Origin: Naegleria gruberi
Lineage: Eukaryota
Direction: 5' to 3' (one strand)
Length of the DNA stretch: 64,000 nt
Assembly: GCA_000004985.1 (NCBI GenBank)
Contig: GG738927.1
The translations under genes were made by a program, and so were the position numbers. The notes under the pieces were generated by a model. It saw only the letters and a program-made list of their open reading frames with translations. It was not told the origin of the DNA and made no database searches. Numbering within the stretch: the stretch's first letter is position 1; each line of letters begins with the position of its first letter. This document shows positions 4,661 through 60,138 of this stretch, piece after piece.

Positions 4661-5887
4661 ATGCACAACATTAGCAGTCTAGACAACAGCACTTCCTCTC
4701 CATTATTCGATTTGATATGGCAGAATAAGAATGCTTACTATGAGCATTTGGCACTCTCCAATAAACATCAACAAGCCAAGAAGGAATCTACTAATTCCTC
4801 TGAAAAGGAGTCAATGAATGAAGAGGAAATTGATGAAACTCTCCGATATATTGAAAATCCGTATCTTGTTGTAGAAAACAAACCAGACACACATTTCATG
4901 CTATTGGCAAAAAATCCAGAAACTGAAGAAGGACAAGTCATGACTTTCTATAATCAAATCCATATTAATCCAGACCTTAATGATGCTAACAAATTGGATG
5001 AAGAATTGAATGGATGTTTTGAAAAATCAGCCCAACTCAAAGTTCCAATAATTTGCAGTGTTCCAACAAACGCTAAAAACACCTCTCAGATAATGGATAA
5101 GTTAATTAATAAGGGGTTCATACCATCTGGTACTGGACCAGGAATGATTTTGAATTACTCTACATTTGATAAACAGAAAGCCAAAGATGCACTGAAATCC
5201 AATTCTGAAAAGTTGGAAATTGGTGAATTGAAACAAGTGAATTGGATACACAGATATGACGATGAACACCCTGATAATATCATGTTGAGATTATGGTGTT
5301 ATACTTTGGTTTCTTCATTTGGATTCTATTCTAAAGAGACAACTGCAAATCATTTCTATGAGGTGTTCAGACATGCTCGTTTTGGACCAGAAGAATCTCT
5401 TAGAATGTTCTATGTACTCTATAGAGAAACTCCAGAATCTAAACCAAAAATGATTAGTGTAGCCACACTCTTCGTAGAAAAGGAGAAGAGTGTGTGTGGG
5501 CTCTACAATGTTGGTACTGTAAAGGATCCAGCTATTAGAAGGATGGGTTCTGCTCGATTATTGTCCTATCATGCAGTTTTTGAAATAGGACAGGAAGAAC
5601 TCAATTTGAAATATTGTACCTTGCAATCTTCAAAGGCAGCATTCAATTTGTACAAGCAATTGGGATTTGAACACATTGGAGATTGGAACATGATTGTATA
5701 TCCAGATAATGTTCACTGGTTGTTAAATCTCTTACTCAAGTTGGTTTTGTTGAGATTTGCCATGCGTCTGTTGGGTGTGAGAGATCTTTCCGAGGGATCG
5801 GCTTGGAAAAAGTTGCTGGCCTTTGTAGTGCTGTGGTTCTCATTTTTGGTTACTGTCATATTTTGGGTAGCTCCTCAAATTCAATAA
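4661..5887 (+). CDS. Hypothetical protein with a GNAT-like acetyltransferase motif and a C-terminal TM helix
   Basis: 408-aa ORF. RRMGSARLL...AAFNLYKQLGFEHIG resembles GNAT motifs A/B. C-terminal hydrophobic LLAFVVLWFSFLVTVIFWVAP. Confidence 0.35.
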   Translation: MHNISSLDNSTSSPLFDLIWQNKNAYYEHLALSNKHQQAKKESTNSSEKESMNEEEIDETLRYIENPYLVVENKPDTHFMLLAKNPETEEGQVMTFYNQIHINPDLNDANKLDEELNGCFEKSAQLKVPIICSVPTNAKNTSQIMDKLINKGFIPSGTGPGMILNYSTFDKQKAKDALKSNSEKLEIGELKQVNWIHRYDDEHPDNIMLRLWCYTLVSSFGFYSKETTANHFYEVFRHARFGPEESLRMFYVLYRETPESKPKMISVATLFVEKEKSVCGLYNVGTVKDPAIRRMGSARLLSYHAVFEIGQEELNLKYCTLQSSKAAFNLYKQLGFEHIGDWNMIVYPDNVHWLLNLLLKLVLLRFAMRLLGVRDLSEGSAWKKLLAFVVLWFSFLVTVIFWVAPQIQ

Positions 5888-5892
5888 AATCC

Positions 5893-7281
5893 TCAATTTC
5901 CAGATAATTTCAACCATTTTCCTAATAATTGTTCCATGTTGACATTGTTATGTGTTGTTGATGATGATGAAGAGGAAATGTTTTGATTAATGATATCATT
6001 TGTAGATGTAGAATCATTGTCTGTGAAAAAATAATTCAATGAGGATGCTACCATCAATTTGGAACAAGTTATTGCTCCTTTCATATTGGCTAGAGCTATC
6101 CTTTTGAATTTTTCATGTTCCAATCTAGTGGGATGATAATTTCTAGCAAAGCATTCAGATCTAACAATTTTTAAACAATGAACCATATAAATCTGTAGAG
6201 AGCTAGCTTCAAATAGTTGAAAATCTTTACATTGATAAATATCCTTACTCTGATCGTATAGATAATTGAGACAGGAGGTAAGAGCAGTGGCAGTCAACTC
6301 AGAAGCTGAACCCACAAATATTTTTACACCTTCCTCTATAGCTTTAAATATTTGATGTGATTTTGGGTAAAACTTAGGATCAAACTCTGGTCTTGAAGTG
6401 CTACTCTTTTCCATCATTTCAATATTAAACAATTTGGTGATAAACTCGTGTTGTCCCTCCAAAATTAAATTATTTTCGGCTTGCTCTTCCATCAAATCCA
6501 ATTCAAACTCCTCATCAAAATCTATTTCATCAATATCTACTTCATCCTTATCCTCTTCCTCATTAATAATCTCAACTCGGTCGAATATTGTTTCACTCGT
6601 AACTGATTCTCCACTTTCACTAATTATATCATAAGTTACAGCTTGTTCATTACTAAGATCAGATATTTCTGAAATAGGTTGAGTAATTAAGGTGAGTGAT
6701 ATCTCATGTTCGTCCCTCCAAATTATTTCCTTAAAATCCAAATCAATAATGGCTCTAAATTCTGTTGGGTCCACAGTTCCTTGTTTGGCCTTGTTCACAA
6801 ATTCTTTACCATCCAAAAATTCCTTTTCAATATCACTTGCTCTCTCCTCAGCAATGACTTTGAAAGAAAATAAAAGTGTTGATGGTTTCAAATGGCACGG
6901 ATAAAAAGCCTGTTTAAATTGTCTCATATAATTCGTGACATTCTTCAAGTAATCCTCAGTGCCAGCTCCTTCCACTCGCACAAAGATCGGAGTTCTCTTC
7001 AAACTCTTAATCATGTGTGCCTTCTCACCAACAGAAAGCCTAGAGAAAAAGGAATTAAAATAATAATTTTCACGATATTTAACAATGACTGTATCGGTGA
7101 CTAGATGTTCTCGAGAAACCTTCTCCGATTTGATTTTTGTTTTTTCTCCCGATTTTACATTTAATGATGTTGTTGTTGTTGAAGAAGGAGTTGTTGTACT
7201 ACTTCTCCTAGAAGAAGAGGCAGCATCAGCAGATGAAGAAGTTTTTCTTGCCTTCTTGCTCCTTGTGTTTTTTGTTCTCAT
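5893..7281 (-). CDS. Hypothetical protein with a basic Ser/Thr-rich N-terminus and an acidic central region
   Basis: 462-aa ORF; ATG preceded by an A-run. Convergent with the previous gene with a 5-bp gap. Confidence 0.4.
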   Translation of the reverse strand: MRTKNTRSKKARKTSSSADAASSSRRSSTTTPSSTTTTSLNVKSGEKTKIKSEKVSREHLVTDTVIVKYRENYYFNSFFSRLSVGEKAHMIKSLKRTPIFVRVEGAGTEDYLKNVTNYMRQFKQAFYPCHLKPSTLLFSFKVIAEERASDIEKEFLDGKEFVNKAKQGTVDPTEFRAIIDLDFKEIIWRDEHEISLTLITQPISEISDLSNEQAVTYDIISESGESVTSETIFDRVEIINEEEDKDEVDIDEIDFDEEFELDLMEEQAENNLILEGQHEFITKLFNIEMMEKSSTSRPEFDPKFYPKSHQIFKAIEEGVKIFVGSASELTATALTSCLNYLYDQSKDIYQCKDFQLFEASSLQIYMVHCLKIVRSECFARNYHPTRLEHEKFKRIALANMKGAITCSKLMVASSLNYFFTDNDSTSTNDIINQNISSSSSSTTHNNVNMEQLLGKWLKLSGN

Positions 7282-9405: not shown

Positions 9406-9693
9406 TTAATCATCAGAATCATCAGAATCATTAGAATCAGCAGAATCAGCAGAATCCTCTGAATCCTCAGAATCCTCATAGGACTCTTCCTCTTCTCTCT
9501 TGAATTTTGGAGCAAGAGTTCTCAAAAACTTATCCTTCAAAGCTGCAGGCGTTCTACATGTGTGAAAGGTTGTAGAATAAACTTTCAATATCTTAGTCCA
9601 ATTATCACTGAATCGTCTGTATCCTTCCTCTAACTTGTCCATCTCTTGTTCAGACCAAAATCTTGAGCTAGACTTTTTGGTAGGGGAAGACAA
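9406..9693 (-). CDS. Myb/SANT (telobox-like) domain plus acidic SD-rich tail. Likely the terminal exon of the upstream large gene rather than an independent gene
   Basis: W-SEQEMDKLEEGYRRFSDNWTKIL...RTPAALKDKFLRTL matches the Myb/SANT three-helix pattern with a telobox-like LKDK. Its reading frame stays open upstream through the stop of the 9774..14053 gene. Confidence 0.5.
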   Translation of the reverse strand: MSSPTKKSSSRFWSEQEMDKLEEGYRRFSDNWTKILKVYSTTFHTCRTPAALKDKFLRTLAPKFKREEEESYEDSEDSEDSADSADSNDSDDSDD

Positions 9694-9773
9694 TATTGAC
9701 CTAGCTGCAGAGTCAGAGAGAACAGTACTATTCCTACTTTTTCTTCGACTAGATTTTCTCTTTTCTGTCTTTT

Positions 9774-12700
9774 CTAACTTGACAAATAACGAGCCTCCTT
9801 CCTCTTCCTCCTCTCTTCTTCACTTGTTTCTACACATGTTGTAATACCATTTACTCTATCAGTAATGAAATTTGTATACTTATTTTCTGTATAATATTCT
9901 GAAGTTTTTCTATATTTGTTCAGTCCTTGCAAAGTGCAATCAGGTTCAAATTCTTGCTTCATTTTAGCATTATCATCACTTAGTCCAGTAGAAATTCTTT
10001 GTTTGTCCTTGTTTGGAGTTAAATCAAAGAGTTTTGTTTGCCTTAATCGTTTTTTACCGTTCTTTGATTGAGTTGATGAGGTAGTGCTTTGGGTGTCCTC
10101 TTGATTGTGAATAGATTGTAGAATGGAATCACTATGTGAAATGAAACTCTCTTGATGATTTTCGAGTGGATGAATCTCTGAAGGCAGTTGTGATGGAGAG
10201 GAGGCACCTGCTCCCAATTCTGGTAAATCAGTATCTATTTTATGTTGTACACCATTAACTTCTTCATGCTTGGAATTATTTACGAGATTTAGTAATTTAT
10301 CAGGAATGCAGAATATCAATTTTTCCACATTAATCAACAAGCCAGATAAAGCATCCTTCCTTTCATTTGGTTCTGCTTTGTTAATTTTCCTCTTCCATGA
10401 TGCAAGTTTCTTCTCAAACCTCTCCTTTCCGAAACTTGATAATTGGGCTACTGATTTAAATCCTTCTTCCGAAAGTCCAGAAATTATTTCCTGTAATTTA
10501 GTTATTAAAGCATTCACTTGATCGATGAAAGATGTACTCATCACAGAGTCTTTTAATTGTGATAGGTTTGTAAAAATCTCCTGAATCTTTACTATTACAT
10601 CATCACGATTATATTGGTCACCAATGGCTTGCACAAATTTTGCAATCAAATCGCCATGTTCTCGAAAATTATTATACAAATAACTCAGGACGATTGTATT
10701 TGCTTCCGATCGTATTTGTGGCAAGACTTCATCATCGGTAATCATTTCATCAGTTATGTTTGATTGTTCCATTTTTTTTGTCTTGGTTTGCTGCTTCGAG
10801 AGAATTACCAGGTTGGATGCTGGCTTTGCATCGTTTTCTGTCGAATAGGTCTTGTGCCAATTTACGTGAGAGAGTTGATATTTCTTCATTCTCGTGTCTA
10901 ATGTATTTCAAAAGAAGACCACTATTCTCTTCAGATTCGGTTGCCAGGGTTGCGAATGAATCAGCCAATACAATCAAACAACTCATAATGAGTGGAGCAC
11001 CATCACTGGTAAAGACTTTAAGACAACTGATTACGAGTGGATAAAATTCTGAAGCCAGTGTTTTGGAAACGATCATAATCTTACCAATTGCAGCTACAGC
11101 ATGACTTTTCAATGATTTTGGTGCCTTTCTTGATTGCATACAGTTCCTTAGTAGATTGACATATCTAGAAAGAAATCCCTTGGTTAAGCTTTCAGTAACA
11201 GCCCTTTCTAAAACAAGTCCTTTGGCTTGTTCTCTTTGATTTTCCTTCATGCAGTTTTCCTCCTCACCTTCAAAATCATCCTCCTCTGATATCAGCTTGT
11301 CACTATTCTCGTTGAATTTCCTAGTAGCAATAGACCTAATTTCCAAACTATCCCTATAACAAATCTCTCCAACTAAATCAAAGAATGCACTCATCTTTTC
11401 GAGATCAGTTTCTTGTTTTTCAGTAAAATCCTTCCAAACTGAGCTCTCCACTTTTCCAATTCCATAGTAGGCCAATCTTCTATTACTCTCTGTAGAGTAT
11501 ACCAAGGAAAGGGTCTCACGACCAAATTCTAGTAGTAGGAACGCAATGTTTTCTTCCAAAAAGTTGTCCACAGACTTTTTGAAGGGTTGATTATTGCTTA
11601 TTCTATATACCTCCTCTATAATTCTTATTTTCAATGAGATTAGCTTTCGATTACCTTCAATGTTGGAAATCAAATCTTTAAGGTTTTGAAGAATGTTTTC
11701 AAAAGGAATGAATACCAAAAAACTAGAGTCTAACTTGAGCAACAACAACATGGTGAATATTGCTGTTGTTAAATCTAGCTTCTCCCTACAATACTCAACC
11801 AGAGATCTCAAACTCAAGTTAGGGAAGTAAGTCTTGATTCCACTGAATAAAATCAGCCATGGATCGATTAATTCAGTATTTCTTTTACAGGTTACATTGA
11901 TGAAAAAGCACTATAACTTACGTGATTGATTGCAACAATAAACCGAACTTGAACTTGGATTGAGGATCTACAAAATAGGAAACAAACAGATTGCATATTC
12001 TCTGCTTAACAGATGAGTGTGTATCCTTTCCAATACAGGATACAAGTTCTGACCAGTCAATCTTCAAACCTTGAATGGTCAGTTTGTCAAACAAGTTGAA
12101 CACTGATAGTATGGATTCTTTGCAAAATAGAGGGCCTTCAAGTGATAAAGCTCTCAAAGTGTTGAGCAATTTGGGAATGAATTTGTAGTAGACTTTTTCG
12201 AGAAATTCTACGTGCATTCTCTTACAAGAAATGTCATCATCCAAGTCATTTGATTCATGTTGGAACAGAATACACTCACTTTTTGTGGATGAAAATCTCA
12301 CTTTAACATGCGAACTTTGTTGTAATCTTCTACTAAGGCTTTCGAATGTTTCATCAATGAATGGTACCATATTCTTTGGTTGTTGTTCCAAAAATAACAT
12401 GGTGTTATCATATAAGGATTGACCTAATTTCTCAATCACATTATTCTTGTATAATTGATATAAATCCAACAATTCGACGCTTTTTTCAAAGTTGTCTCTA
12501 CACAATAATAAATCAAAAGCTCTGGTGTAGGGATTTCTTTGTATTAGACCAAATGAAGCATTAATACTCTGTACTCTTGTTGTCTTTGACTTGTCAGAGA
12601 TGTGGTCAAGGCAATTATTCTAATTACCTTAATAATCATATTTGAAATGTAACTTACCAAGAATTTGTTAAACTCAACAGCATAATTATTCCAATCAACC

Positions 12701-14053
12701 TGACCCGAAATATCTGCAATTTTCTGGAATGCTCTTGTTCTAACAAAGGCGTCCTTATCGTTTGTTCTTTGAAGTACAATATTCAAGAAATCCTTATTGA
12801 GTATGTTTGCCTCTATCAAGTTGGAAATTACTTCCAAAAAGTATTTTCTAATTGAACCATTTGAGGAATTGGAAATGAAATCCAGATCAGAAATGTACAT
12901 TACGAATACTTTTGGAATTTTCTTTGAAAGGATTGACAACAGCTCTACAGCCTTTGATACATCTTTGCTCTTCTTATTGGTCAACTCTACCATATTCTGT
13001 ACAAGTTGAATGAAATAATCCAAAAAGACGAAGGAGAATTCTTCGTTATGATTATGTATATCAACAAGTATTGAGCACATATTTTGTGGCTCAATTATTC
13101 CTTCTATGCACAACTTGGAAATAAATGCGCAAAATCTCAGGTGATATTTTCTTAAATCCTCTTCATCATTGATAATCTTGAACGGTAATAGAAGCAACAC
13201 TTGGAACGCACTCCACAAGCTTGTACTAGACTTTTTTCCTCCATTTGAAAATGCCAATAGGAGCTTTGGTAGGGAATAGTGCACCAATTCAATCAAGATT
13301 TCCATTCTCATTTGCTTTCTTTTTGCATTCTCATAAAGAAGTGAAGTATAAGAATCAATAGAACCGAGTATCTTTTCCAAGCTACCTCCCTTCAATTTTC
13401 TGTTTTGTGACAGCTTGAAGAGTGAAGCAACTAGAATTAAGAAATGTCTATTGAATATTCTCATCAATAAAGCTCCATCAGGGTTACGTGATGATGCCTC
13501 ACCCTCATTCAATGAAATAGCCTCACTAATTGAATGACATCCATATTCTACAACCCTCACTATTTGACATAAAGTGTCACTACTCAATGAATCAAAGGCT
13601 AAAACAATACTGTTGAAAATTCTACTATCCAACATCGGGAAAGCTATCATTAAAATTACATGATCACAATACATGAATAATTATTCGAAACATACCATCA
13701 ACAATACTATGAAATTGATTTTTAATTTTCATCGGAAAATCATTCAAAAGACTTAACAAGCCTTCACTTGAAATTGGATTCTCTACAATCAAACTATCCA
13801 CAGACTTGAATAAGGATGAATAATCACCCACTCTTTCATTTTCACTCTCCTTGAACAATCCTTTTGAATTCGAAACAAGGCTTTCAAAATTCCAAACTTT
13901 TGAATTTCTAATCAATTTTGGCATATCCAAATAGCCTTTCTCCTCCTCTTTACTACCATTAGCCAGCACATTCAAATTGATCAACTCACCATTATCAGCC
14001 TTTCTCTTCTTTCTTGGTTGTTTATCACTTGATTGCTGCTTCTTGTTTGCCAT
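9774..14053 (-). CDS. Large multi-exon HEAT/ARM-repeat protein (about 1400-1500 aa). Identity not established (condensin non-SMC-like or other HEAT scaffold)
   Basis: Five same-strand track ORFs are joined by in-frame GT..AG introns that I reconstructed. Intron 13644-13695 is 52 nt (GTATGT..TAG). Intron 12590-12657 is 68 nt (GTAAGT..AAG). Intron 11843-11921 is 79 nt (GTAAGT..CAG). One further intron lies near 10727-10808 (GTAATT donor; acceptor uncertain). ATG at 14053 with an A-run. DKDAFVRTRAFQ-type HEAT motifs are present. Confidence 0.6.
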
Positions 14054-14059
14054 TTTTTT

Positions 14060-14764
14060 TCAATTTGTTTTTGGCGCCTTAGAATGTTGTTGATCTTTGA
14101 TAATTTCCTCAACCTTTCTCATTACAAAATTCAAATAGACTCTATCTAAATCACTACAGAATACCTCTGATTCATGCATGGTTTTCTCTCCATACGAGCC
14201 ATGGAAACTACTGGCTCCCAATTGTCGATCATCTTGTCTATTGAATGAGGCTATTTCCTCACCACCGAATGAAGTACTTGATGGTTGCTGCTTGATGAGG
14301 ACAATAGAAAAATGATGAGCATTCGAAAACATTAATCCAAATTGATTATCAGTGACTAATTGGACAATCTTTGCGAGAAGGTGAAATTCTGCCAACAAGT
14401 CAGCTCTTCCTTCCTTGTTTAAATCAAAAACATGATCATCAGGATGATTGACTTCCTTCTTATCATTTTCCAAACATTCAAACATCATGGTTCTTTCTTC
14501 ATTGACATAGAATGACCACACTGGAAACTTTCCTTCAATGCAGAGTTTGTATTTTGTAGGGAGTTTATTCTCTTCCGAAGAGGGTGATGATGAGGGTGAT
14601 TCACGTTTGTTATTTCCCTTTCCATTCATTAAAAAACCACTCGATATTGAATATTCATAGGAATGAGAAAGAAAGCAGCCACTCACTTGTTCCGATTCGT
14701 ACCAGTTATATGATGAGGATGCCTTTCCACTGAAAGGATTATTCTTATTATTTGAATTGCCCAT
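14060..14764 (-). CDS. Hypothetical protein, N-terminal MGNSNN (possible N-myristoylation)
   Basis: 234-aa ORF. Its stop lies 7 nt upstream of the ATG of the next gene on the same strand. Confidence 0.4.
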   Translation of the reverse strand: MGNSNNKNNPFSGKASSSYNWYESEQVSGCFLSHSYEYSISSGFLMNGKGNNKRESPSSSPSSEENKLPTKYKLCIEGKFPVWSFYVNEERTMMFECLENDKKEVNHPDDHVFDLNKEGRADLLAEFHLLAKIVQLVTDNQFGLMFSNAHHFSIVLIKQQPSSTSFGGEEIASFNRQDDRQLGASSFHGSYGEKTMHESEVFCSDLDRVYLNFVMRKVEEIIKDQQHSKAPKTN

Positions 14765-17076: not shown

Positions 17077-17779
17077 ATGTGAATTTACTATAGTCAATCG
17101 AATATAGGATGTATCGTGAGTAACTATTGCTTGTACTAATAACAAACAAGGTTAGGTATAATATGCAAAGCTTCTTCTACTTGACAAGGGTTCGAATAAA
17201 GCAACAAATGTGGTCGAGTGACTTGGAACGCACTCACACCTCAATTAGCCGTATTATTATTTGCCCAAATGAATGTCAGACAATTTCCTTAACAATCCAT
17301 GTCTTCGTTTTGAGATGAAAACACTCTCAAATTGAGATGGAGCCAATCTCCTTAGTTCTGTGTCTCCCTTAATTTAGATCTTGACATTAATAATGGTTTT
17401 ACATCACCCTTAATTAAGATCTTTACAACGCACCTCAACCTTGTTCTGTGTCTACAACTTATATATTCAGGCATTCGGAGAGTCAACGATTAAGGATTTT
17501 GTATTGCTAGTTGTTTCAATAGCTCTTTATTTAGCCAATGCCACTTTCCTCAAAATCAAATTTATCCATTTCTAGTAAGCTCCATGTTTAGCGGTCTTCC
17601 AAATTAGGCCTTCACTAAAGACATACTCATATGAACCAATTGAGATTGACTGGAGATTACGTCTCTTTAAGTTTTTAAAACGAAAATATCAAAAAAAACA
17701 AGCAAACGCACGCTTTTACAAAGCAAAAGAGAAAAAATCTCATTTCTGCTCTCTTTTCCAAAGCTCTCTTGAAGCACCT

Positions 17780-18415
17780 TTGAGCATGATGAATCCATCA
17801 TCAGTAACAACAACACTACACAGGAGTTTGTCATGGAGTGGTGGTGGTGGCTTGAATAATAGCAACTGCTCTAAATTCTTTAATCATACTATAGCGAGAC
17901 AACGTCAAATTAATCAGAGAAGAAAGATGGTGAATTTTGAATGTGGTTGTTCATCGTCCATGTCATCTGAAGCTTCGTTATCGACAATGACAAACTCATC
18001 AACAACAATGAATAATAGCACACCAAGATATTTCTCATCCAAACATGGGAGAAGAGAAGCAACAAGTGATAGTTACTTGTTGAAATCAAATACAGTTCGA
18101 AACTATTCTCATGAGACTCGACAACATGTGAGTCGACCTCAACGGGTCTTACCTAAAGCTCACAATCCACAATCACTCTTATTACTGATAAGAAGTGTAA
18201 TGGACAGTGAAGAATTCACAACATTATCTGGAGACGAAAGTCCAAAAAAACTCCACAAGCAATTCCAGTCCACTGAATCTCTCAGTTTACCAACTGAATC
18301 CCAAATTGTAATTAATCTTCCAACCTTTACCATTAATTGTATAGGTTTTCTTCGAACCCAAATCCACAAATTTGTAAATTATTTCAATACAATCTTCAAT
18401 AAAACCATGCGGTAA
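17780..18415 (+). CDS. Hypothetical protein
   Basis: 211-aa ORF; Ser/Thr-rich; no domain recognised. Confidence 0.3.
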   Translation: MSMMNPSSVTTTLHRSLSWSGGGGLNNSNCSKFFNHTIARQRQINQRRKMVNFECGCSSSMSSEASLSTMTNSSTTMNNSTPRYFSSKHGRREATSDSYLLKSNTVRNYSHETRQHVSRPQRVLPKAHNPQSLLLLIRSVMDSEEFTTLSGDESPKKLHKQFQSTESLSLPTESQIVINLPTFTINCIGFLRTQIHKFVNYFNTIFNKTMR

Positions 18416-18673
18416 TAGTAACTAATACAAACTTTCTAATATTTCAACAATATAATTTTCCAAGTTAGCTGAGTACAATTTATTTTAATGAGTAACATGA
18501 TATTCACAATGACCTACAAGTTAAAACAATTAACTATTCTTGATAGTGGTAGAAAAGAATGTATCGAATATCTTGAAATCAGCTGCAATCACATAGGTTC
18601 CGAGGGAACCAGACAACTTGAATAATGTTAGAAGCATTAGCATATTATTACAATGAATAAAGTACACGTTGAA

Positions 18674-20560
18674 CTAGTCCGAATCTTCCTCTTCAGTTTT
18701 TGGTTTCTGACTAAAAAAGGAGCCAATTTCACTTTGCTTCTTTTTAACTTTCAGCTTACAATTCACTTTTTCTTCCTTTCCTGTCTCCTTATCAACTATG
18801 AAAATATCATCTTCATCATCTATTTCATTCTCCTGGGGAAGAATTGATTTTTTCACAAGCTTAATATTACTCTGCTTTTTGGTTGGTTTTTTGGATGATG
18901 GCTCTGGAAATTCCTTTCCAGGAATAAATGGAGTCTGGAATAGATTGATGAGTTTCTTCACCTTCTTCTTACCAAAACCTGGCAAGTCATTCAGTTCATC
19001 AGATGTTGTCTGAATGACCTCTTTCAGTGATCCAAAGTGATTGAGCAATGTAATGTGATCTCTCTTGTTGAGTGTGTTTTTCAGAGTGGCAGCAAAGAGT
19101 TGATGCACTTCCTCAGTGTGCGAAAGTTTTTCTACCTCAACTGGTTTGGAGTTGCTATTGGAGCTACTTTCCCTACTCCATCTCCTATTTCCCTTTCGTT
19201 TACCTTGTCCTCCTGTTGATGTAACCAATGAATTGGTTGATGATTGAAGTGAGGCCAATGATTGATTAGGTCCTTGAATCAATGATGAACCCTTAGTCTC
19301 GCATGCTCTAATGGTTTCCAAATACAGTGCACATTCCTCATCTGAAAATCCACAAATCACAGTCCAATCGGCCCACATGGAAATTCTCGTTACTTCTATG
19401 AGTGCCTCATCGAGTGCAGTCTCTGAAACATAGGTTGGTGCCTTAAAGGTTCCACCATTCTCACCCTGAGAGTCCTGATGATTAGATAGATAAATTGATG
19501 AATCTCCACAGGCATCCACATGTACATCCACATTCACTAGAATGATTCGATTAGTAAACGTGCCTCTTTTACAAATTTCAGTCTTGTGAAAATTCTTAAT
19601 TCTCTCTAAAATATATTTCGGTTTGGTCATGTGAAATTTAAGACTGAGATAGAATGCAGTGGTTTGTCTTCCTAGAATATAATCAGTTAAGGTCCAATCT
19701 TTTGTAAAGTGTAATTTGAAAACCTTGTCCCGAATGTGTTTTACAATGGGATTCTTCTTTTGCACTTCATTTGCAACAATGGTTGTGGCAGTGGTGGGAA
19801 AAGGCACATACGAATTAGGTGGTACAGGATTTGATGTTACAGCAACTTGTGGACTAATGCTTTCAATCAATGGAGAAGCAGAAGCACTATTACTACTTCC
19901 AACAGAAGAAGGCGTCGATGGTGTACTACTATTAAATGGAGGAATAAATATTGGAGGAGTACTTTGATTCAAAGATGTCATAGACGACTTGACAGGAGTA
20001 ACAAAAGATGAAGATCCACTACCAACACTCGGAGAAGAATTACTCTTTTGAGAATTTTGAGAATTTTGAGATGTTTGTGAAATCCTTTGTGGAGGAATAA
20101 ACTTTTGTGGCACGAATGGCACGTTACTATTACTCGGAATGCTATTTGGTGGAGAAACCACAGTACCAGGTGTTCTATTGATAATTCTACTCGTGTAATT
20201 TGTTGTTGGTGTGTTGCTACTGCTTGCTACAGACGATGATTGTCTCGTTTGTTGTTGTTGATTGAAATTAATTAAATTATTATTATTATTGGATGATCCC
20301 AAGCCTGGAGCACTATTCGGAAGCCTCAAAGTAGCAGATGACGATGATGGTGATGATGATGATTTAAAATTCCTTTTCAATTCGGCAAGCCTTTGATTGG
20401 CATCTTGTCGATAACTTTCCAATTCTCGTTCTTCCTTTTCCTGTTCCTCATCAATATCAAAATCCATTACATTGACAATCAATCCGCCTCCTCCTCCACT
20501 ACTACCCTTCGAAGATGATGATGAATTGTTATTCCGAGAGGATGAATTGTTTTCTTGCAT
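18674..20560 (-). CDS. ercc1: DNA excision repair protein ERCC1 homologue with a long low-complexity N-terminal extension
   Basis: Central domain (KNPIVKHIRDKVFKLHF...YILGRQTTAFYLSLKFH...ILVNVDVHVD...ALYLETIRACE) aligns to the ERCC1 nuclease-like domain. C-terminal HhH2 (LLNHFGSLKEVIQTTSDELNDLPGFGKKKVKKLINLFQTPF) aligns to [41 protein letters not shown]. ATG after an A-run. Confidence 0.8.
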   Translation of the reverse strand: MQENNSSSRNNNSSSSSKGSSGGGGGLIVNVMDFDIDEEQEKEERELESYRQDANQRLAELKRNFKSSSSPSSSSATLRLPNSAPGLGSSNNNNNLINFNQQQQTRQSSSVASSSNTPTTNYTSRIINRTPGTVVSPPNSIPSNSNVPFVPQKFIPPQRISQTSQNSQNSQKSNSSPSVGSGSSSFVTPVKSSMTSLNQSTPPIFIPPFNSSTPSTPSSVGSSNSASASPLIESISPQVAVTSNPVPPNSYVPFPTTATTIVANEVQKKNPIVKHIRDKVFKLHFTKDWTLTDYILGRQTTAFYLSLKFHMTKPKYILERIKNFHKTEICKRGTFTNRIILVNVDVHVDACGDSSIYLSNHQDSQGENGGTFKAPTYVSETALDEALIEVTRISMWADWTVICGFSDEECALYLETIRACETKGSSLIQGPNQSLASLQSSTNSLVTSTGGQGKRKGNRRWSRESSSNSNSKPVEVEKLSHTEEVHQLFAATLKNTLNKRDHITLLNHFGSLKEVIQTTSDELNDLPGFGKKKVKKLINLFQTPFIPGKEFPEPSSKKPTKKQSNIKLVKKSILPQENEIDDEDDIFIVDKETGKEEKVNCKLKVKKKQSEIGSFFSQKPKTEEEDSD

Positions 20561-34086: not shown

Positions 34087-37000
34087 ATGTATTCAAACAA
34101 CAACAAGTGTCATTGTGGTTTAATTGCCAAGCAAGGAACGACCTCGAAGGGAGAAAATCAGGGTAGAAAGTACACCTCCTGTTCTAAAAGTATGACTGAT
34201 AAGAGTCGATGCAAATTCTTCAAGTGGTTAGATTCATCAGAACAAACAGCAACAACCAACATATCATCTTCTTCATCATCCTTCAAAAGCAATAGCAAAT
34301 TACAGCACAGTGAGCAGGCTTTTGATGATACTTTGAACAAGACGATACAATTGATGAATAGAGTGCTTCCTTCTTCCTTGTTATCATCAACAAGTGGTTC
34401 TTCTTCTTCATCATCAAATAACAAGTCTCCTTCCAACAACACTAATAGCCAGTGCTCATCTCTCACACTCTCACAATTGTGCTCCAGTATGGAAGACTTG
34501 AATATTGACAAAGATCTTTCAAAGCCTTCTTCTTCTCAAGCTATTGATAGAGACTTCATATTGAATGATAGTCTTTTTCCTTCTTCTTCTTCAGAAGCAA
34601 GCAAGAATAGTCTTCCTCTGATTGGAAACAATCAGCATAAAGGAGGAACATCATCTTCATCGTTACCAAATTCTCTCCTTGAAGAATGTATGCAAAAGGA
34701 ATTAAATAGCAAACAATTGGAGGCTGTCTGTGCTAGCGAACATGATTGTGTATGTGTTTATAGTGGACCGGGATCTGGTAAGACAAAGGTAAGTTGTTGT
34801 TATTATTGGATGGTAGAGGGAATTAATAATTAATTATTTGATGAATATTCATCTTGTGATGATGTGATGAATTTTTTTTTAATTTTTATTTAATTTTTTT
34901 AAAAAATTCATAACGGTCATGGATCCAAATTTTAGACCATCACCAACAGGATTGCCTACTTGTGTATTGTTAAAGGAATTGAACCAAGGAATGTATTTGC
35001 CATGACTTTTACTAACAAGGCTGCTCAGGAGATGAAAACAAGACTTGTTCACCTTGTGAAATTGTACGATTTTCAAAAGAGAATTAATGCAAAGGATTTC
35101 AGTCATATTGGAACGTTTCATGCAGTTTGTGCTAATATTTTGAGAAATGAGATGCATCATTTGACTCGTATTGTTGGATTGGATCAGAAATTTATGATAT
35201 TTGATTCGGAAGAGCAGCTGTCATAATTAGGAGCTTGTACAAGTCATCAACTAATCATTCCATTAGAAGNNNNNNNNNNNNNNNNNNNNNNNNNNNNNNN
35301 NNNNNNNNNNNNNNNNNNNCTTTTAAAAAATTCGTAACGGTCATTGTAAACTTTGGGTGGATCCAAATTTTAGACCATCACCTACAGGATTGCCTACTTG
35401 TGTATTGTTAAAGGAATTGAACCAAGGAATGTATTTGCCATGACTTTTACTAACAAGGCTGCTCAGGAGATGAAAACAAGACTTGTTCACCTTGTGAAAT
35501 TGTACGATTTTCAAATTAATGCAAAGGATTTCAAGACTTGTTCACCTTGTGAAATTGTACGATTTTCAAATTAATGCAAAGGATTTCAGTCATATTGGAA
35601 CGTTTCATGCAGTTTGTGCTAATATTTTGAGAAATGAGATGCATCATTTGACTCGTCTTGTTGGATTGGATCAGAAATTTATGATATTTGATTCGGAAGA
35701 GCAGCTGTCAATAATTAGGAGCTTGTACAAGTCATCAACTAATCATTTCATTAGAAGTTTACTTCCATTGAGTTTGTCTTTGGAGGATATGGAGAAGAAA
35801 CTCTCTCCAACTCTAGTTTTACAAACGATATCACGATGTAAGAATCAACAGGTTTCAGCTGATGAATATTCGAAAGCATTCCATCAAGAAATTGAGGAAA
35901 CGGTCATTGCTGAACTATTTGTAGAATATCAACAGTATTTATCGAAACACAATGGGGTGGATTTTGATGATTTATTGCTTCATGTTGTGTACTTGTTTGA
36001 AAAATTCCCTCTAGTGAGAGAAAAGTATGCCAATCAATGTGAAGTATTATTGGTCGATGAATTTCAAGATATCAACAAGTTACAATACAAGATTGCCATG
36101 CATTTGAACTCAAAGAGGAAGAACATCTTCTTGGTTGGTGATTCCGATCAAAACATTTACACTTTCAGATTCAGTGATAGCTCAATAATGCGGGAAGTTA
36201 TCAAAAAGTATGAGAAGGAGGGAAAGAGCATGAAAGTCATCATGATGAATGAAAACTATCGATCCACAAGAAGTATTGTCCAATTTTCAGACAAAATAAT
36301 AGCTAGCAATTCTAACAGATTAAGAACTATCAGCTCTACCACTTCAAACACCACGGGTTTACCAGTTTCGATAGTCAGTTGCTCTGATGAAGCCGAGTTC
36401 ATTACAAATGAAATTGTAAAACTCACAAACATGAATAACAACATTCAATATTGCGACTTTGCAATCCTTATCAGAGTCAACTCTGCTTCTCGAGTATTCG
36501 AAGACATTTTTGATAGGAAAAAGTTGCCTTACAGAATTTTGAATTCCACAAGATTTTACGACTCTATGGAAGTGAAAGATATTCTTTCCTATGCAAAAGC
36601 TATTGCAAATCCAGATAATGATCACTTCCTGTTGAGCTGTGTGAATGTTCCAAGAAGATGCATCACTGAGGAGACAAAGTCCAAGTTGATAAAGCTTGCA
36701 GCTCAGAATAAGATGTCTCTGAGGTCAATTATCAAGAATCATAACAAGGAAATTGCTGGACATCTAGGAGCCAATGAGTTACAAACACTCATTTCCACAA
36801 TAGATTTTATCGAAAAGTCTCAAATTAATCTTCATTCTCCTTCAACTATTATGCAAGATATTATTCGGGTGATTGATTATGAATCCTACTTGAAATTCAC
36901 ACAGAAGAATATGTTCGAAACAAGATGGGAGAATTTGAAAGAGTTAATTAACATGTGTCAAGAATTTGAGTCCAAATCAACCATTCCCTCAATTTCATCA

Positions 37001-38257
37001 TTTTTACAAAGCATTTCAATTTCCACAGAGATGGAACCAATTTCAAAAGATTCATCAAATTCCATTACAATTTCCACAATCCATGCAGCCAAAGGTTTAG
37101 AATTTGGAATTGTATTTGTGGCAGGAGTTGAGAAGGGAAATATTCCATACTACAAAGCTCAGGAAAAGAATGAAATAGAGGAAGAGAGAAGATTACTGTT
37201 CGTTGCCTGTACAAGGGCTCAGTCCTTACTCTGTTTAACCAATTCCAAAACAAGATTCAGACTTGGAAAGAGTTACAACACTCAGAGTTCTGAGTTTTTG
37301 AGCATAATTCTCTCTAATCAATTCACATTCTATTCTAATTCATCATTAGCGACTCTATTGAGTGATAATTCCATATCTCAATTAAGATATGAGACTATTA
37401 ATCATTTAGTAGCTTGCAGAGACAAGAAATCTAAACAAAATCTTTCTTCCTCCTCGGATATTCTGACAAAAGATCTGAAACGAGTTAAAAATATGGAAAG
37501 TTTCGAACCTACAACCGAATCAAGCAACGTTCCAGAATATTGGTTCAATAAGGAACGATTCAAGATTGTGGACGTAACAGATACTATGAAATTAACCATT
37601 CAAGACTTGATGGATAATTCATGTGAAAAGAAAACTCTTGGAAGTGGAAAGGATCAAACGTATTTCAAGAAACAATACACTCAATTGGAAGTTATCAAAG
37701 TGGAACGAGTTGAAAATCCAAATCTCTACGGATTATATCAAGCCAAACAATCTCAAATGAAATCTTTCAAGGATAATCCCCAACCCATCCCAGTCAAAAC
37801 TGTGGAAAAAGTTCCACCCAACTCAACAGCCAAAACCTGGATTCAAAGTGTAAAATTATGCCAACAAGTTAATGAAAAATTCTTTTGGCACGGCACTGAT
37901 TCACAAGTTGTGAGCATTATTTGTGAACATGGTTTAGATGCAAGAGTGAGCTCACTTTCTGGACTATTCGGTGCAGGAATTTATTTTGCAGAATATTGTT
38001 CCAAGAGTGATCAATACTGCTCGCCAACGAATGATCTTTTTCACATGTTTCTCTGTCGAGTCATGATTGGTAATCAAATTGAAACTCTTGAAAAGGGAAA
38101 ATCTCTCAATAATATTCGAAGACCAAGTGTCATTCCAAACACCAATGGACGAACATTTGATAGTATTCTAGGAAAACCAAACATGTACAAGGAATTTGTA
38201 GTTTACGATAGTTGCCAATGCTATCCAGAATTTCTAATTACTTATAAAAGGAAATAA
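34087..38257 (+). CDS. Fusion protein: N-terminal GRF-type zinc finger, UvrD/PcrA-like SF1 helicase, and a C-terminal PARP (ADP-ribosyltransferase, H-Y-E) catalytic domain. Two exons: 34087..34788 and 35374..38257
   Basis: GRF: [26 protein letters not shown]...CKFFKWL. Helicase motifs: GPGSGKT (I), [16 protein letters not shown] (Ia), [11 protein letters not shown] (II), NYRSTRSIV (IV), [16 protein letters not shown] (V), FVACTRAQ (VI). Exon junction: GKTK + TITYRIAYL...TFTNKAA aligns to UvrD GKTRVLTHRIAWL...TFTNKAA. PARP: [11 protein letters not shown]...[17 protein letters not shown]...MYKEFVVYD...YPEFLITY, compared with PARP1 LLWHGS...GKGIYFADMVSKSANYC...YNEYIVYD. The intron 34789..35373 (GTAAGT...TTTAG) contains a 50-N gap and a duplicated exon-2 copy. 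Confidence 0.75.
34880..35760. repeat. Near-identical duplicated segment (about 390 bp × 2) on either side of a 50-N gap. Probable haplotype/assembly duplication of helicase exon 2
   Basis: 34880-35269 and 35320-35760 match except for a few substitutions and a 1-nt indel. A local 45-bp tandem duplication lies at 35500-35590. Confidence 0.7.
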
Positions 38258-52200: not shown

Positions 52201-52413
52201 TTCTTCAATGTACTCCACAGCAGATTGATTTTTTCTCTTAAAGAATGCTGTTAAATGATCATAAACCTTTTTGTTTTTCGCAATTCTTTCCTCGTAAACT
52301 GATGCAAAGTGTTGAGAAAGCAATCGGTCCGATGATGATCCGCCATAAATTTCGGGATGGTCATCTTGATGATGAAAATTTATAAAAAGATCGCCAAAGA
52401 CAACTTTCGACAT
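49246..52413 (-). CDS. Giant protein (1055 aa) made of tandem DUF4116-like repeats
   Basis: Roughly 30 reiterations of an approximately 36-aa unit (L-K-x-D-R-E/D-I/F-V-L-x-A-h-x...L-x-Y-A-S-x-E-L) in a single exon. ATG at 52413 after an A-run. Confidence 0.6.
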   Translation of the reverse strand: MSKVVFGDLFINFHHQDDHPEIYGGSSSDRLLSQHFASVYEERIAKNKKVYDHLTAFFKRKNQSAVEYIEENPLPDNDCKLALLKIVRADGRVLEHASDDLKNDELVVLAAIKENVSAIEFASQRLKTDKNFVLKALKCKPKMFVDSTLFEHLPHFHDDDEIARLAVEQQPKCLQYVSANLKNNRDVILKAIKKDGSVLEYVPDNLKDREIVLLSTKSSRYTCTLRFAPKEFTADKEIVLSAANSPGFYFLYAAESLRSDRDFVLEIVKKKGDSLRDVSPQFKKDREIVYDAVKSGRALQYADPIFWKDREIATLAVSKDAHSLSSLTDLKEDREFILNCISGANNFFTFLDYVNSSLANDNDFIDELLDIQCKYSNAMWYSKEDFKALNASRQKRIVNIDPACFENISHDELKTDRQLILDCILSERKVLENLNEEFRNDRELIRLAVKQHYGALEYASDELKNDRELVLEAILFDSTNFTFASKELRMDTEILECTIIKDSTFLEYAPESVRRDREFVLRAIRNSFNTISQYFGYNLKEDRDLILEHAKRTGSIETLPQEFKQDREIVLTAIQLYGSEFKYASRSLLNDRELLIIALRNGFRLSDYNEIELDREIVYESCRYDRNNLKNVPEQYRDDEEIVEAAISYTETGYGHYFFECVSDRLKSNVDFMRKMAKIYGYVIHYVPESLANDRELILNAVSQDASTLQYASEELKNDKEVILTALKISAECYQHISEEMKNDEEVLEALRKWLPAEFLKKPVNLNKEAAMIALRLRSLNDLDYSFKNDRQFALMAVNVNMNNLLYVSNRLKMDRNFILEIEPKTYDILNVPIRLREDREIALRSLELSGDSIMHLSAELKNEFKNNREIMLKAIKSDAVAFLYASEELQNDEEFVLECASVNGKVLQYVPLKFIHNRNVVLKCAQNHQDTLQFAVPEFLNDKEIVMHAVSHETSYSALCYALFEMRNDRDIVLRAIQHDVTALEVASYEIISDEDFIAQAMDINIESLRFAHYSLRYNTEFLKRMNKNNRIVENASKKLKKTIDFDSLVKQNK

Positions 52414-59072: not shown

Positions 59073-60138
59073 TTGGAAACGAATCATACAATTGATGAAT
59101 ATATTCCTCATCAGAGTGTCTCCTCGGAACCTCTTTGGTTGAGAGAATTACAAACCTTGGAACCTGTAAAAATTCAAATTGAACATTTTGTTGATGTTCA
59201 TCATTTGCGAATTGTTGTTATTTCGGATACTCATGGATTTCATCGTTACTTGAAATTTCCTCCTTGTCCCGAGGGGAAGAAGATGATTTTAATTCATTGT
59301 GGTGATATGACAGAGCATGGAACTATGGATGAGTTGAGGAAATTTAATGAATGGTTGGGACACATTCGAGTTAATTTCTCTCAGATTTTTGTATTGCTGT
59401 AGGTTAAATTAATTATTAGGTATTTATTCTAATAATATATTATTGATCCGATTTATTTTAAATAATTTATTGATCGGAATAATAGGAATCATGAAACTGA
59501 ATTTTCAAAATTTACTAAGCAAGGTTTGTTTGAAATCTATTGNNNNNNNNNNNNNNNNNNNNNNNNNNNNNNNNNNNNNNNNNNNNNNNNNNNNNNNNNN
59601 NNNNNNNNNNNNNNNNNNNNNNNNNNNNNNNNNNNNNNNNNNNNNNNNNNNNNNNNNNNNNNNNNNNNNNNNNNNNNNNNNNNNNNNNNNNNNNNNNNNN
59701 NNNNNNNNNNNNNNNNNNNNNNNNNNNNNNNNNNNNNNNNNNNNNNNNNNNNNNNNNNNNNNNNNNNNNNNNNNNNNNNNNNNNNNNNNNNNNNNNNNNN
59801 NNNNNNNNNNNNNNNNNNNNNNNNNNNNNNNNNNNNNNNNNNNNNNNNNNNNNNNNNNNNNNNNNNNNNNNNNNNNNNNNNNNNNNNNNNNNNNNNNNNN
59901 NNNNNNNNNNNNNNNNNNNNAATTATTGGATTTACACAAGCTCAAAATTCATCTCTTTGGACACATTCACTCAAAAAATGGTTATGAATTTTTGAGAAGA
60001 TCATACGTGTTGGAAGCTGCTAAAAAAGAAAAAGATGATAGCACGAAACAGTTGAAAACTGAACAAAGTAATGATGATATTCTATTTATTAATGCAGCAA
60101 ATTCACACAAATTCCAGCCATTCTACTTTGATTTGTAA
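59073..60138 (+). CDS. Calcineurin-like metallophosphoesterase (MPP superfamily); split by an intron and a 378-N gap
   Basis: Motifs VISDTHG (GDxHG), IHCGDMTEHG (GDxxDRG-like) and, after the gap, HLFGHIH (GH/GHxH). The exon boundary near 59391 is unresolved. Confidence 0.5.
59543..59920. other. Assembly gap (378 N)
   Basis: Run of N. Confidence 1.

What the first reader, a model, noticed from the sequence alone, without database searches (positions are those of the whole stretch)
9406..14053. Large HEAT/ARM gene probably ends in a telobox-like Myb/SANT exon reached by a purine-rich 50-nt intron or a frameshift
The Myb ORF (9406-9693) stays open upstream to 9820 in the +1 frame relative to the last exon of the 9774-14053 gene, which ends ...EEERRKRKEARYLSS*. 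A GTGAAG...GTTAG intron (9774-9823, 50 nt) would fuse ...NGITTCVET to KKTEKRKSSRR...SSPTKKSSSRFWSEQEMDKLEEGYRRFSDNW...RTPAALKDKFLRTL plus an acidic SD tail. A large ARM/HEAT protein with a single C-terminal TRF-type Myb would be reminiscent of telomere/meiosis proteins such as TERB1. Alternatively an indel in the purine-rich run gaagaagagaggaggaagagg causes the frame break.
Basis: inference. Interest (0 to 1): 0.5.

Follow-up and report, generated by a model that had tools for sequence, protein, structure and literature searches.

The report
Three fused genes and a frameshift
The Myb domain belongs to a small separate Naegleria gene, not to the large HEAT-repeat gene, and the break in its reading frame comes from a 1-2 base length difference in a variable GA-rich run, not from an intron, so the proposed HEAT-Myb fusion is an annotation artefact.

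Summary
The same junction, ...CVET|KKTEKRK..., is already in the public JGI model NAEGRDRAFT_82165 (1596 aa).

Comparative data argue against that model.
- The HEAT protein is a condensin CAP-D2/D3 (Cnd1) family member. Its orthologues all end 8-30 residues after ...KCKA(S/A)LQ, which corresponds to TGA 10752-10750 here.
- The Myb domain is the C-terminus of a separate ~445-aa gene that starts at ATG 10772 or 10745.
- In N. fowleri that gene is a separate single-exon gene 157 nt downstream of the HEAT gene. In N. lovaniensis two other genes lie between them.
- Environmental N. gruberi-like genomic contigs, 98.6-99.2% identical, carry one unbroken 444/445-aa ORF.
- The window differs from those contigs by +2 or -1 bases in the run GAAGAAGAGAGGAGG.
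- The "intron" encodes ...EEEGGSLFVKLE..., which aligns with orthologue coding sequence.
- Its GTGAAG start, 46% GC and 74% purine are unlike the three verified local introns.

Verdict: three adjacent genes, plus an indel that is either an assembly error or a real NEG-M allele. Interest is low.

The parts
9406..10772 (-). Gene for a ~445-454-aa Naegleria-specific Myb protein. It starts at ATG 10772 (A-rich context aaaaaaaATGg) or ATG 10745 and stops at TAA 9408-9406. In this reference sequence the ORF is broken at the GA-rich run.
   Evidence: The N-terminus MEQSNITDEMITDDEVLPQIRSEANTIVLSYLY aligns with the N-termini of N. fowleri FDP41_000710 (427 aa) and N. lovaniensis C9374_004442 (437 aa), both single-exon genes. 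Environmental contigs carry one continuous 444/445-aa ORF.
9774..9823 (-). The proposed 50-nt 'intron', GTGAAGAAGAGAGGAGGAAGAGGAAGGAGGCTCGTTATTTGTCAAGTTAG. Most likely it is coding sequence for a Glu run followed by GGSLFVKLE.
   Evidence: The Myb-frame translation EEEEEGGSLFVKLEKTEKRK is kept in P0025 and P0028 and aligns with ESDEPETILEIESSEEERKKR (N. lovaniensis) and ESDDAVIVESSEEEAKKR (N. fowleri). It is 46% GC and 74% purine with a GTGAAG start. The three verified HEAT-gene introns are 21-30% GC and start GTATGT or GTAAGT. The G9778A difference in the wild contigs is synonymous in the Myb frame.
9811..9820 (-). Site of the frame-breaking length difference inside the GAR run. The MAFFT alignments place it at 9816-9815, but within a repeat the exact position is arbitrary.
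   Evidence: Window: AGTGAAGAAGAGAGGAGGAAG. L004: AGTGAAGAAGAGGAGGAAG (2 bases fewer). L006: AGTGAAGAAGAAGAGGAGGAAG (1 base more). Every other indel inside coding sequence between the window and these contigs is a multiple of 3.
9466..9657 (-). Single C-terminal Myb/SANT domain, RFWSEQEMDKLEEGYRRFSDNWTKILKVYSTTFHTCRTPAALKDKFLRTL. An acidic Ser/Asp/Glu tail follows at 9495-9409.
   Evidence: Pfam PF13921 covers residues 55-118 of the translation of 9819-9409. The AlphaFold2 model gives three helices with pLDDT 72-81. Solved-structure matches are Tbf1 and Terfa.
10750..14053 (-). Condensin CAP-D2/D3 (Cnd1) family HEAT-repeat gene, 1057 aa. Exons are 14053-13696, 13643-12658, 12619-11922 and 11881-10750. 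Introns are 52, 38 and 40 nt. The stop is TGA 10752-10750.
   Evidence: The gene model was checked and matches the exon borders of the JGI model. Orthologues P0015, P0002, P0003 and P0005 all end 8-30 residues after KCKA(S/A)LQ. A family profile matches Ycs4 (E=7e-6) and NCAPD3 (E=0.002). Pfam Cnd1 is found in 2 of 10 family members, best E=3.8e-7.
14060..14764 (-). Separate upstream gene (MGNSNNK..., 234 aa) that the JGI model also fuses to the HEAT gene. It ends at TGA 14062-14060, six bases before the HEAT ATG at 14053, and is in frame with it.
   Evidence: N. fowleri (291 aa) and N. lovaniensis (278 aa) have separately called orthologues with a conserved C-terminus and their own stop codon. 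The junction is identical in environmental contig L005.

Best explanation
The locus holds three adjacent genes on the minus strand, not one.
1. A small MGNS... protein gene at 14764-14060.
2. A condensin CAP-D2/D3-family HEAT-repeat gene at 14053-10750.
3. A Naegleria-specific ~445-aa protein gene at 10772/10745-9406.

The third protein has an N-terminal helical bundle, a long disordered acidic/basic linker, a single C-terminal TRF/Tbf1-like Myb domain and an acidic tail. It is probably a nuclear DNA- or chromatin-binding protein.

In the NEG-M reference sequence the third gene's ORF is interrupted inside a variable run of Glu codons (GAA/GAG). The run is 2 bases longer, or 1 base shorter, than in-frame alleles found in near-identical wild N. 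gruberi-like DNA. The GTGAAG...TTAG '50-nt intron' is a gene-model patch over that frameshift.

Shown here: the separateness of the genes, the indel, and the coding nature of the segment in relatives. Inferred: that the segment is not spliced in NEG-M. Unresolved: whether the indel is a consensus error (for example at a heterozygous 3-bp indel) or a real NEG-M allele that truncates the protein before its Myb domain.
For: Identity of the window:
- P0013 (XP_002669431.1, NAEGRDRAFT_82165, 1596 aa) maps at 100% identity onto exons between 14764 and 9409. It contains the junction ...CVETKKTEKRK....

Separate genes:
- In N. fowleri the HEAT orthologue lies at L001 10001-13262. A separate single-exon 427-aa Myb gene follows at 13420-14703.
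- In N. lovaniensis two genes, one of them on the opposite strand, lie between the HEAT gene (10001-13269) and the 437-aa Myb gene (17420-18733).
- In Willaertia the HEAT orthologue is followed by an HlyIII gene, with no Myb gene.
- HEAT orthologues end just after KCKA(S/A)LQ.
- The flanking genes are syntenic.

Indel rather than intron:
- P0025 (444 aa) and P0028 (445 aa) are continuous ORFs on genomic metagenome contigs of run ERR1078381 (PRJEB11402). These contigs are 98.6% and 99.2% identical to the window.
- The only non-3n indel inside coding sequence is in the GA run. A sister contig, L005, keeps the HEAT introns, so this is genomic DNA.
- The segment aligns as coding sequence with both orthologues.
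- Its composition and 5' splice site are unlike the verified local introns.
- The AGTGAAGA(A/G)GAG stretch containing the putative donor encodes Ser-Glu-Glu-Glu in N. fowleri and N. lovaniensis as well.
Against: - No transcript data could be consulted, so splicing of 9823-9774 in NEG-M is not directly excluded.
- The spliced product also gives a plausible, nearly gap-free alignment to ESSEEEAKKRPRR...ARSI, with almost the same spacing (my reading of the output).
- In the wild alleles the same GT..AG segment is 48 or 51 nt. It could therefore be removed there without breaking the frame.
- The two continuous-ORF contigs come from one sequencing run, so they are not independent samples.
- The 4-6-nt (or overlapping) spacers between the three genes are unusual. 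They leave open some form of shared transcript.
Confidence: 0.82

Rival explanations
1. The frameshift allele is real in NEG-M and is rescued by splicing of the 50-nt GTGAAG...TTAG segment. That segment would be a young intron born from coding sequence by intronisation of a Glu-codon run. The Myb protein is then made, but still as a separate gene from the HEAT gene.
For: - It has GT..AG borders, its 50-nt length lies within the local intron range of 38-52 nt, and its removal restores the frame exactly.
- The spliced product keeps nearly the same spacing between VET and ARSI as the orthologues do.
- The JGI predictor chose the same intron.
Against: - The donor GTGAAG lacks the +5 G and +6 T seen in all three verified local introns. 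The segment is 46% GC and 74% purine against 21-30% GC.
- Splicing would delete the conserved ...LFVKLE... element.
- The wild alleles need no splicing.
- A gene predictor will place any frame-restoring GT..AG across a frameshift, so the JGI model is not independent evidence.
Confidence: 0.1
2. One reading: one large gene encodes a HEAT/ARM protein with a C-terminal Myb domain (TERB1-like architecture), produced by splicing across 10865-10550 and 9823-9774.
For: - The public model XP_002669431.1 has this structure.
- The genes are co-directional, with essentially no spacer in N. gruberi.
Against: - The linking intron would remove RKLAQDLFDRKRCKASIQP, which is conserved at the C-terminus of every HEAT orthologue. 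It would also remove the conserved N-terminus of the Myb protein.
- The HEAT stop codon TGA (followed by a second TGA) is kept in the wild strain.
- The only other frame-compatible donor, GTAATT at 10808, reads GTCATT in the wild strain.
- The two genes are unlinked in N. lovaniensis.
- No member of the HEAT family carries a Myb domain.
Confidence: 0.03
3. NEG-M truly carries a truncating allele, and the Myb protein gene is a pseudogene or null allele in this axenic laboratory strain. The product would end ...KEARYLSS* (323-332 aa) and lack the Myb domain. This is a sub-case of the best explanation; the other sub-case is a consensus error in the Sanger assembly.
For: - The GA run is visibly length-variable: alleles of n and n+3 occur in one sample.
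- NEG-M is reported to be diploid and heterozygous (Fritz-Laylin et al. 2010, as cited in PMC9928731). A null allele could therefore be tolerated.
Against: - Downstream of the break the Myb frame is intact and nearly identical to the wild allele. The break must therefore be very recent or not real.
- Heterozygous 3-bp indels are a classic source of consensus errors (my own knowledge).
Confidence: 0.4

Closest known systems
N. fowleri FDP41_000710 (XP_044569524.1, 427 aa) and N. lovaniensis C9374_004442 (XP_044548784.1, 437 aa), 'Myb-like domain-containing protein'
   Same: They are orthologues of the gene at 10772-9406. They share the N-terminal helical domain, the disordered acidic/basic linker and the single C-terminal Myb domain ending ...ALAPKFK. 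They also share the downstream convergent neighbour.
   Different: Both are uninterrupted single-exon ORFs without the long Ser/Asp tail. The N. gruberi reference copy has a frame break in its Glu run. Identity is only 31-33%.
JGI gene model NAEGRDRAFT_82165 (XP_002669431.1, UniProt D2W2Q7, 1596 aa)
   Different: It is a chimera of three genes. It skips segments conserved in the orthologues: VEEIIK... at the end of the upstream gene, RKLAQDLFDRKRCKAS at the end of the HEAT gene, and the first ~90 residues of the Myb protein.
Condensin HEAT subunit CAP-D2/Ycs4 and CAP-D3 (Pfam Cnd1, PF12717)
   Same: A profile of the HEAT gene family matches Ycs4 residues 833-1043 (E=7e-6) and human NCAPD3 (E=0.002). 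Two family members pass Pfam Cnd1.
   Different: The family is very divergent: the N. gruberi protein alone does not reach any Pfam threshold. Which paralogue it is, D2 or D3, was not resolved.
TRF1/TRF2/Taz1/Tbf1-type telobox Myb proteins
   Same: It has a single Myb repeat near the C-terminus with helix-3 motif RTPAALKDKFLRTL, close to the R-T-x-x-x-L-K-D-K of Tbf1. The best solved-structure matches are Tbf1 and zebrafish Terfa.
   Different: The matches are weak (E about 0.005-0.02). Phe stands in place of the usual Trp after KDK. The N-terminal domain is a generic helical bundle with no detectable TRFH match. Nothing is known about telomere binding.
TERB1 (ARM repeats plus a C-terminal Myb domain)
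   Same: The resemblance would exist only if the HEAT and Myb parts formed one polypeptide.
   Different: They are encoded by separate genes, so the resemblance disappears.

Membership tests
Spliceosomal intron (for 9823-9774) | GT...AG borders and a length that restores the reading frame | tested here: met
   The segment is GTGAAG...TTAG, 50 nt, and its removal joins CVET to KKTEKRK in frame.
Spliceosomal intron (for 9823-9774) | Donor and base composition like verified introns of the same genome | tested here: not met
   The three verified neighbouring introns start GTATGT or GTAAGT and are 21-30% GC and 48-55% purine. The candidate starts GTGAAG and is 46% GC and 74% purine. The sample of verified introns is small.
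Spliceosomal intron (for 9823-9774) | Not part of the conserved coding sequence of orthologues | tested here: not met
   The segment is translated in the continuous ORFs P0025 and P0028. It aligns with coding sequence of the N. fowleri and N. lovaniensis orthologues.
Spliceosomal intron (for 9823-9774) | Spliced reads or cDNA lacking the segment | not testable with these tools
   No NEG-M transcript data were reachable.
TERB1-like ARM/HEAT plus C-terminal Myb single polypeptide | Repeat domain and Myb domain encoded by one gene | tested here: not met
   They are separate genes in N. fowleri and are separated by two other genes in N. lovaniensis. The HEAT orthologues end before the Myb gene begins.
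Myb/SANT domain proteins (Pfam PF13921, PF00249) | Profile match above the curated threshold | tested here: met
   PF13921 scores 34.9 bits against a cut-off of 22.9 (E=1.8e-8). PF00249 scores 25.8 bits against 24.4.
TRF/telobox telomere-binding proteins | Telobox motif in helix 3 of a C-terminal Myb domain | tested here: inconclusive
   The sequence RTPAALKDKFLRTL resembles Tbf1 and TRF, and the top solved-structure matches are Tbf1 and Terfa. Those matches are only E=0.0055 and 0.017. The motif comparison itself rests on my own knowledge.
TRF/telobox telomere-binding proteins | TRFH dimerisation domain N-terminal to the Myb domain | tested here: inconclusive
   The AlphaFold2 model has a confident helical bundle at residues 50-145 but a mean pLDDT of only 49.8. 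Foldseek against the PDB gave no match below E=0.1 and no TRFH hit.
TRF/telobox telomere-binding proteins | Binding to telomeric repeat DNA | not testable with these tools
   This needs EMSA or ChIP experiments.
Condensin CAP-D2/D3 (Cnd1 family), for the HEAT gene | HEAT repeats with a C-terminal Cnd1 domain | tested here: met
   The family profile matches Ycs4 (E=7e-6) and NCAPD3 (E=0.002). Pfam Cnd1 is found in 2 of 10 family members, best E=3.8e-7. The N. gruberi sequence on its own is below threshold.

The most novel reading that the evidence does not exclude
NEG-M really carries the out-of-frame Glu-run allele, and the cell rescues it by splicing the GTGAAG...TTAG segment. In wild alleles that segment is 48 or 51 nt and in frame, so it could be an optional 'exitron'. 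This would be a caught-in-the-act case of an intron arising from coding sequence. A related possibility is that the three co-directional genes, separated by only 4-6 nt, share one transcript.
Probability: 0.07. Interest if true: 0.5.

Novelty: not a real feature. Interest (0 to 1): 0.12.

Why it matters
The practical value is in correcting annotation. The public N. gruberi model NAEGRDRAFT_82165 (UniProt D2W2Q7, 'Myb-like domain-containing protein', 1596 aa) appears to be a chimera of three genes. It is held together by three unsupported introns, one of which hides a frameshift. Anyone using it to infer a 'condensin-like HEAT protein with a Myb DNA-binding domain', or a TERB1-like protein in Heterolobosea, would be misled.

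The underlying genes are ordinary. One is a divergent condensin Cnd1-family subunit. The other is a lineage-specific Myb protein of unknown target.

Tried and rejected
- **My first gene model.** It used an intron at 10865-10820, the only frame-compatible GT..AG intron of at least about 30 nt that my enumeration found between 10900 and 10740. I rejected it because it deletes RKLAQDLFDRKRCKAS, which is conserved in all orthologues.
- **A second linking intron, 10808-10727.** Rejected because the donor GTAATT reads GTCATT in the wild strain, and because it would delete the conserved start of the Myb protein.
- **Word-indexed homologue search with the full fused protein.** It found nothing. The exhaustive HMMER search was needed to find relatives.
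- **Exact-protein look-ups.** Look-ups of window ORFs and of P0013 found nothing on record.
- **Structure prediction.** The accepted run gave a low-confidence model, and the fold search was uninformative about the N-terminal domain.
- **Whole-window RNA scans.** Rfam and tRNA scans found nothing. The bacterial promoter/terminator scan is irrelevant for a eukaryote.
- **Literature searches.** Searches for ERR1078381, PRJEB11402, Naegleria telomere/Myb, Naegleria condensin II and Naegleria polycistronic transcription gave nothing specific.
- **Reassigned TGA codon.** I considered this because of the in-frame TGA at 14062. I rejected it because TGA ends many ORFs in the window and TAA dominates as usual.
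- **Programmed ribosomal frameshifting.** Considered and dismissed: by my reading there is no slippery heptamer, and the wild alleles are in frame.
Full report
**What is in the sequence**

On the minus strand, an ORF ending ...NGITTCVETSEEERRKRKEARYLSS* stops at TAG 9776-9774. A second frame is open from 9819 to TAA 9408-9406 and encodes ...KKTEKRKSSRRKSRNSTVLSDSAARSILSSPTKKSSSRFWSEQEMDKLEEGYRRFSDNWTKILKVYSTTFHTCRTPAALKDKFLRTLAPKFKREEEE followed by an acidic Ser/Asp tail.

That frame has no ATG ahead of the Myb domain. The segment 9823-9774 is GTGAAG...GTTAG, 50 nt, and removing it joins ...CVET to KKTEKRK... in frame.

The Myb call is solid: Pfam PF13921 E=1.8e-8 and PF00249 E=1.2e-5, both above their curated cut-offs. 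The nearest specific solved structures are yeast Tbf1 and zebrafish Terfa, at weak E-values of 0.0055 and 0.017.

**Where the window comes from, and what is already annotated**

The window is AT-rich (about 34% GC), gene-dense, has short introns and contains N gaps.

An exhaustive HMMER search with the HEAT part found 12 relatives. Cluster look-up identified them as Naegleria and Willaertia proteins.

One cluster member, P0013, is N. gruberi NAEGRDRAFT_82165 (XP_002669431.1, UniProt D2W2Q7, 'Myb-like domain-containing protein', 1596 aa). It maps onto window 14764-9409 with 100% identity in its exons. It already contains exactly the junction ...CVETKKTEKRK.... That model also fuses a third ORF upstream, MGNSNNK... 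at 14764-14060.

**The HEAT gene ends at 10750**

N. fowleri (P0015, P0016), N. lovaniensis (P0002), Willaertia magna (P0003) and a metagenomic relative (P0005) all share the C-terminal motif ...(A/L)(K/T)xL(V/A/L)QDL(F/L/M)xxK(K/R)CKA(S/A)L.... All of them stop 8-30 residues later.

In the window this motif is RKLAQDLFDRKRCKASIQP, followed by GNSLEAANQDKKNGTIKHN and then TGA 10752-10750. Both the JGI model and my first model splice this conserved segment out, so both are wrong at this point.

The corrected gene has exons 14053-13696, 13643-12658, 12619-11922 and 11881-10750, giving 1057 aa. Its introns are 52, 38 and 40 nt, start GTATGT or GTAAGT, and are 21-30% GC.

A profile of the family matches condensin subunit Ycs4 (E=7e-6) and human NCAPD3 (E=0.002). 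Pfam Cnd1 is hit by two family members. The gene is therefore a divergent CAP-D2/D3-type condensin subunit. No family member carries a Myb domain.

**The Myb domain belongs to a different gene**

- In N. fowleri the HEAT orthologue (L001 10001-13262) is followed 157 nt later by a separately annotated single-exon gene of 427 aa with a C-terminal Myb domain.
- In N. lovaniensis the 437-aa Myb gene is also single-exon. A Kelch/Ras/Roc gene on the opposite strand and an RCC1-like gene separate it from the HEAT gene.
- In Willaertia the HEAT orthologue is followed by an unrelated HlyIII gene.

The N-termini of the two Myb proteins (MKPHEEKEDTDFIPMANTIILEYLL...) align with MEQSNITDEMITDDEVLPQIRSEANTIVLSYLY... 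in the window.

The gene therefore starts at ATG 10772 or ATG 10745. ATG 10772 has the A-rich context typical of the other starts seen here and overlaps the HEAT stop by 23 nt. ATG 10745 lies 4 nt after that stop.

The flanking genes are orthologous too. The downstream convergent gene matches at 41% identity (E=4e-80), and the C-terminus of the upstream MGNS gene matches at E=2e-13. The upstream gene has its own conserved C-terminus and stop codon in all three species. The locus is three genes.

**The frame break is an indel, not an intron**

A homologue search with the Myb protein returned P0025, a 444-aa protein 94% identical to the query, encoded as one continuous ORF on an 1835-bp contig. 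A cluster mate, P0028 (445 aa), lies on a 3861-bp contig.

Both contigs come from run ERR1078381 of project PRJEB11402, labelled a metagenome. They were built by two different assemblers. A sister contig from the same run keeps the HEAT-gene introns, so this is genomic DNA.

The contigs are 98.6% and 99.2% identical to the window. Across the junction the sequences read as follows:

| Source | Sequence | Run length |
|---|---|---|
| L004 | AGTGAAGAAGAGGAGGAAGAGGAAGGAGGC | n |
| L006 | AGTGAAGAAGAAGAGGAGGAAGAGGAAGGAGGC | n+3 |
| Window | AGTGAAGAAGAGAGGAGGAAGAGGAAGGAGGC | n+2 |

Every other indel inside coding sequence between the window and these contigs is a multiple of three. Indels of other lengths occur only in intergenic DNA.

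The wild proteins read ...CVETSEEEEEEE(E)GGSLFVKLEKTEKRKSSRR.... The stretch EEGGSLFVKLEKTE-KRK aligns with ESDEPETILEIESSEEERKKR in N. lovaniensis and ESDDA-VIVESSEEEAKKR in N. fowleri. The '5' splice site' aGTGAAG is simply the Ser-Glu codons, and the same codons occur in both other species. The single substitution inside the segment, G9778A, is synonymous in the Myb frame.

The segment is 46% GC and 74% purine, and it lacks the +5G/+6T of the verified introns.

**What remains open**

I could not consult NEG-M transcripts, so use of the GT..AG pair in NEG-M is not formally excluded. The spliced product keeps nearly the same spacing as the orthologues, which makes it a tolerable rescue. I give that 0.1.

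I also cannot tell whether the n+2 run is a real NEG-M allele or a consensus error. A real allele is plausible for two reasons:
- The run is visibly length-polymorphic.
- NEG-M is reported to be diploid and heterozygous (Fritz-Laylin et al. 2010, as cited in PMC9928731).

An error is also plausible, since such errors are typical at heterozygous 3-bp indels. The intact, nearly unchanged Myb frame downstream says the break is either very recent or not real.

**Function of the Myb protein**

Only the three Naegleria clusters were found, even with a profile query. The AlphaFold2 model has three parts:
- a confident helical bundle at residues 50-145;
- about 215 disordered residues;
- a three-helix Myb domain with pLDDT 72-81.

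Foldseek against the PDB found nothing below E=0.1 and no TRFH domain. The best-supported statement is that this is a lineage-specific nuclear protein that binds DNA or chromatin through a single Tbf1/TRF-like Myb repeat. A telomeric role is only a lead.

**Verdict**

The headline interpretation, a HEAT gene ending in a Myb exon and resembling TERB1, is not supported. The alternative, an indel in the purine-rich run, is supported. The feature is an annotation artefact in an existing public model and is of low interest, apart from the correction itself and the unusually tight gene spacing noted in passing.

Noticed in passing
window 14053-14062 and 10743-10772 (minus strand): Three co-directional genes have almost no intergenic DNA. 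The MGNS gene's stop TGA 14062-14060 is followed by AAAAAA and then the HEAT ATG at 14053, in the same frame. The HEAT stop TGA 10752-10750 is followed by TGAA and then ATG 10745; if ATG 10772 is the true start, the genes overlap by 23 nt. Both junctions are identical in the environmental strain. The same spacers are 106 and 157 nt in N. fowleri and 54 nt in N. lovaniensis. Other co-directional ORF pairs in this window are at least about 70 nt apart. How the downstream genes are transcribed is unexplained.
   Followed up: partly
window 9795-9823; L004 and L006: The GAR (Glu-codon) run is length-polymorphic within a single environmental sample, giving 7 versus 8 Glu in two assemblies of ERR1078381. 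Other in-frame 3-bp differences from the window lie at 11020 (extra AAC in the HEAT gene), 13491 (extra CAA) and 9477-9475 (GAG missing from the acidic tail).
   Followed up: yes
L001 9019-10060 (N. fowleri): A second N. fowleri annotation (CAG4708655.1, 1270 aa) also fuses the MGNS gene to the HEAT gene through small alternative exons. KAF0984810.1 keeps them separate. The same chimera-prone locus is therefore mis-joined in two species.
   Followed up: partly
window 35270-35319, 55863-57129, 59543-59920, 62804-62853: Runs of N mark scaffold gaps. The 1267-N gap produces the apparent 14.5% GC dip and several spurious ORFs of more than 450 aa at 55.1-57.4 kb.
   Followed up: yes
window 35519-38257 (+): A single 912-aa ORF combines UvrD/REP helicase N- and C-terminal domains (E=1e-41 and 5e-57) with a C-terminal PARP catalytic domain (E=2.5e-25). 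This is an uncommon architecture. A 50-N gap lies about 200 nt upstream, so the true start is uncertain.
   Followed up: no
window 49246-52413 (-): A 1055-aa ORF is made of 14 DUF4116 repeats (Pfam E=8e-187).
   Followed up: no
window 5887-5893: The convergent ORFs 4661-5887 (+) and 5893-7281 (-) end only 5 nt apart, so their 3' UTRs must overlap.
   Followed up: no
L002 13362-17370 (N. lovaniensis): Two genes lie between the HEAT and Myb genes in N. lovaniensis but not in N. fowleri or N. gruberi: a Kelch/Ras/Roc gene on the opposite strand and an RCC1-like gene. This is a local rearrangement or insertion.
   Followed up: no
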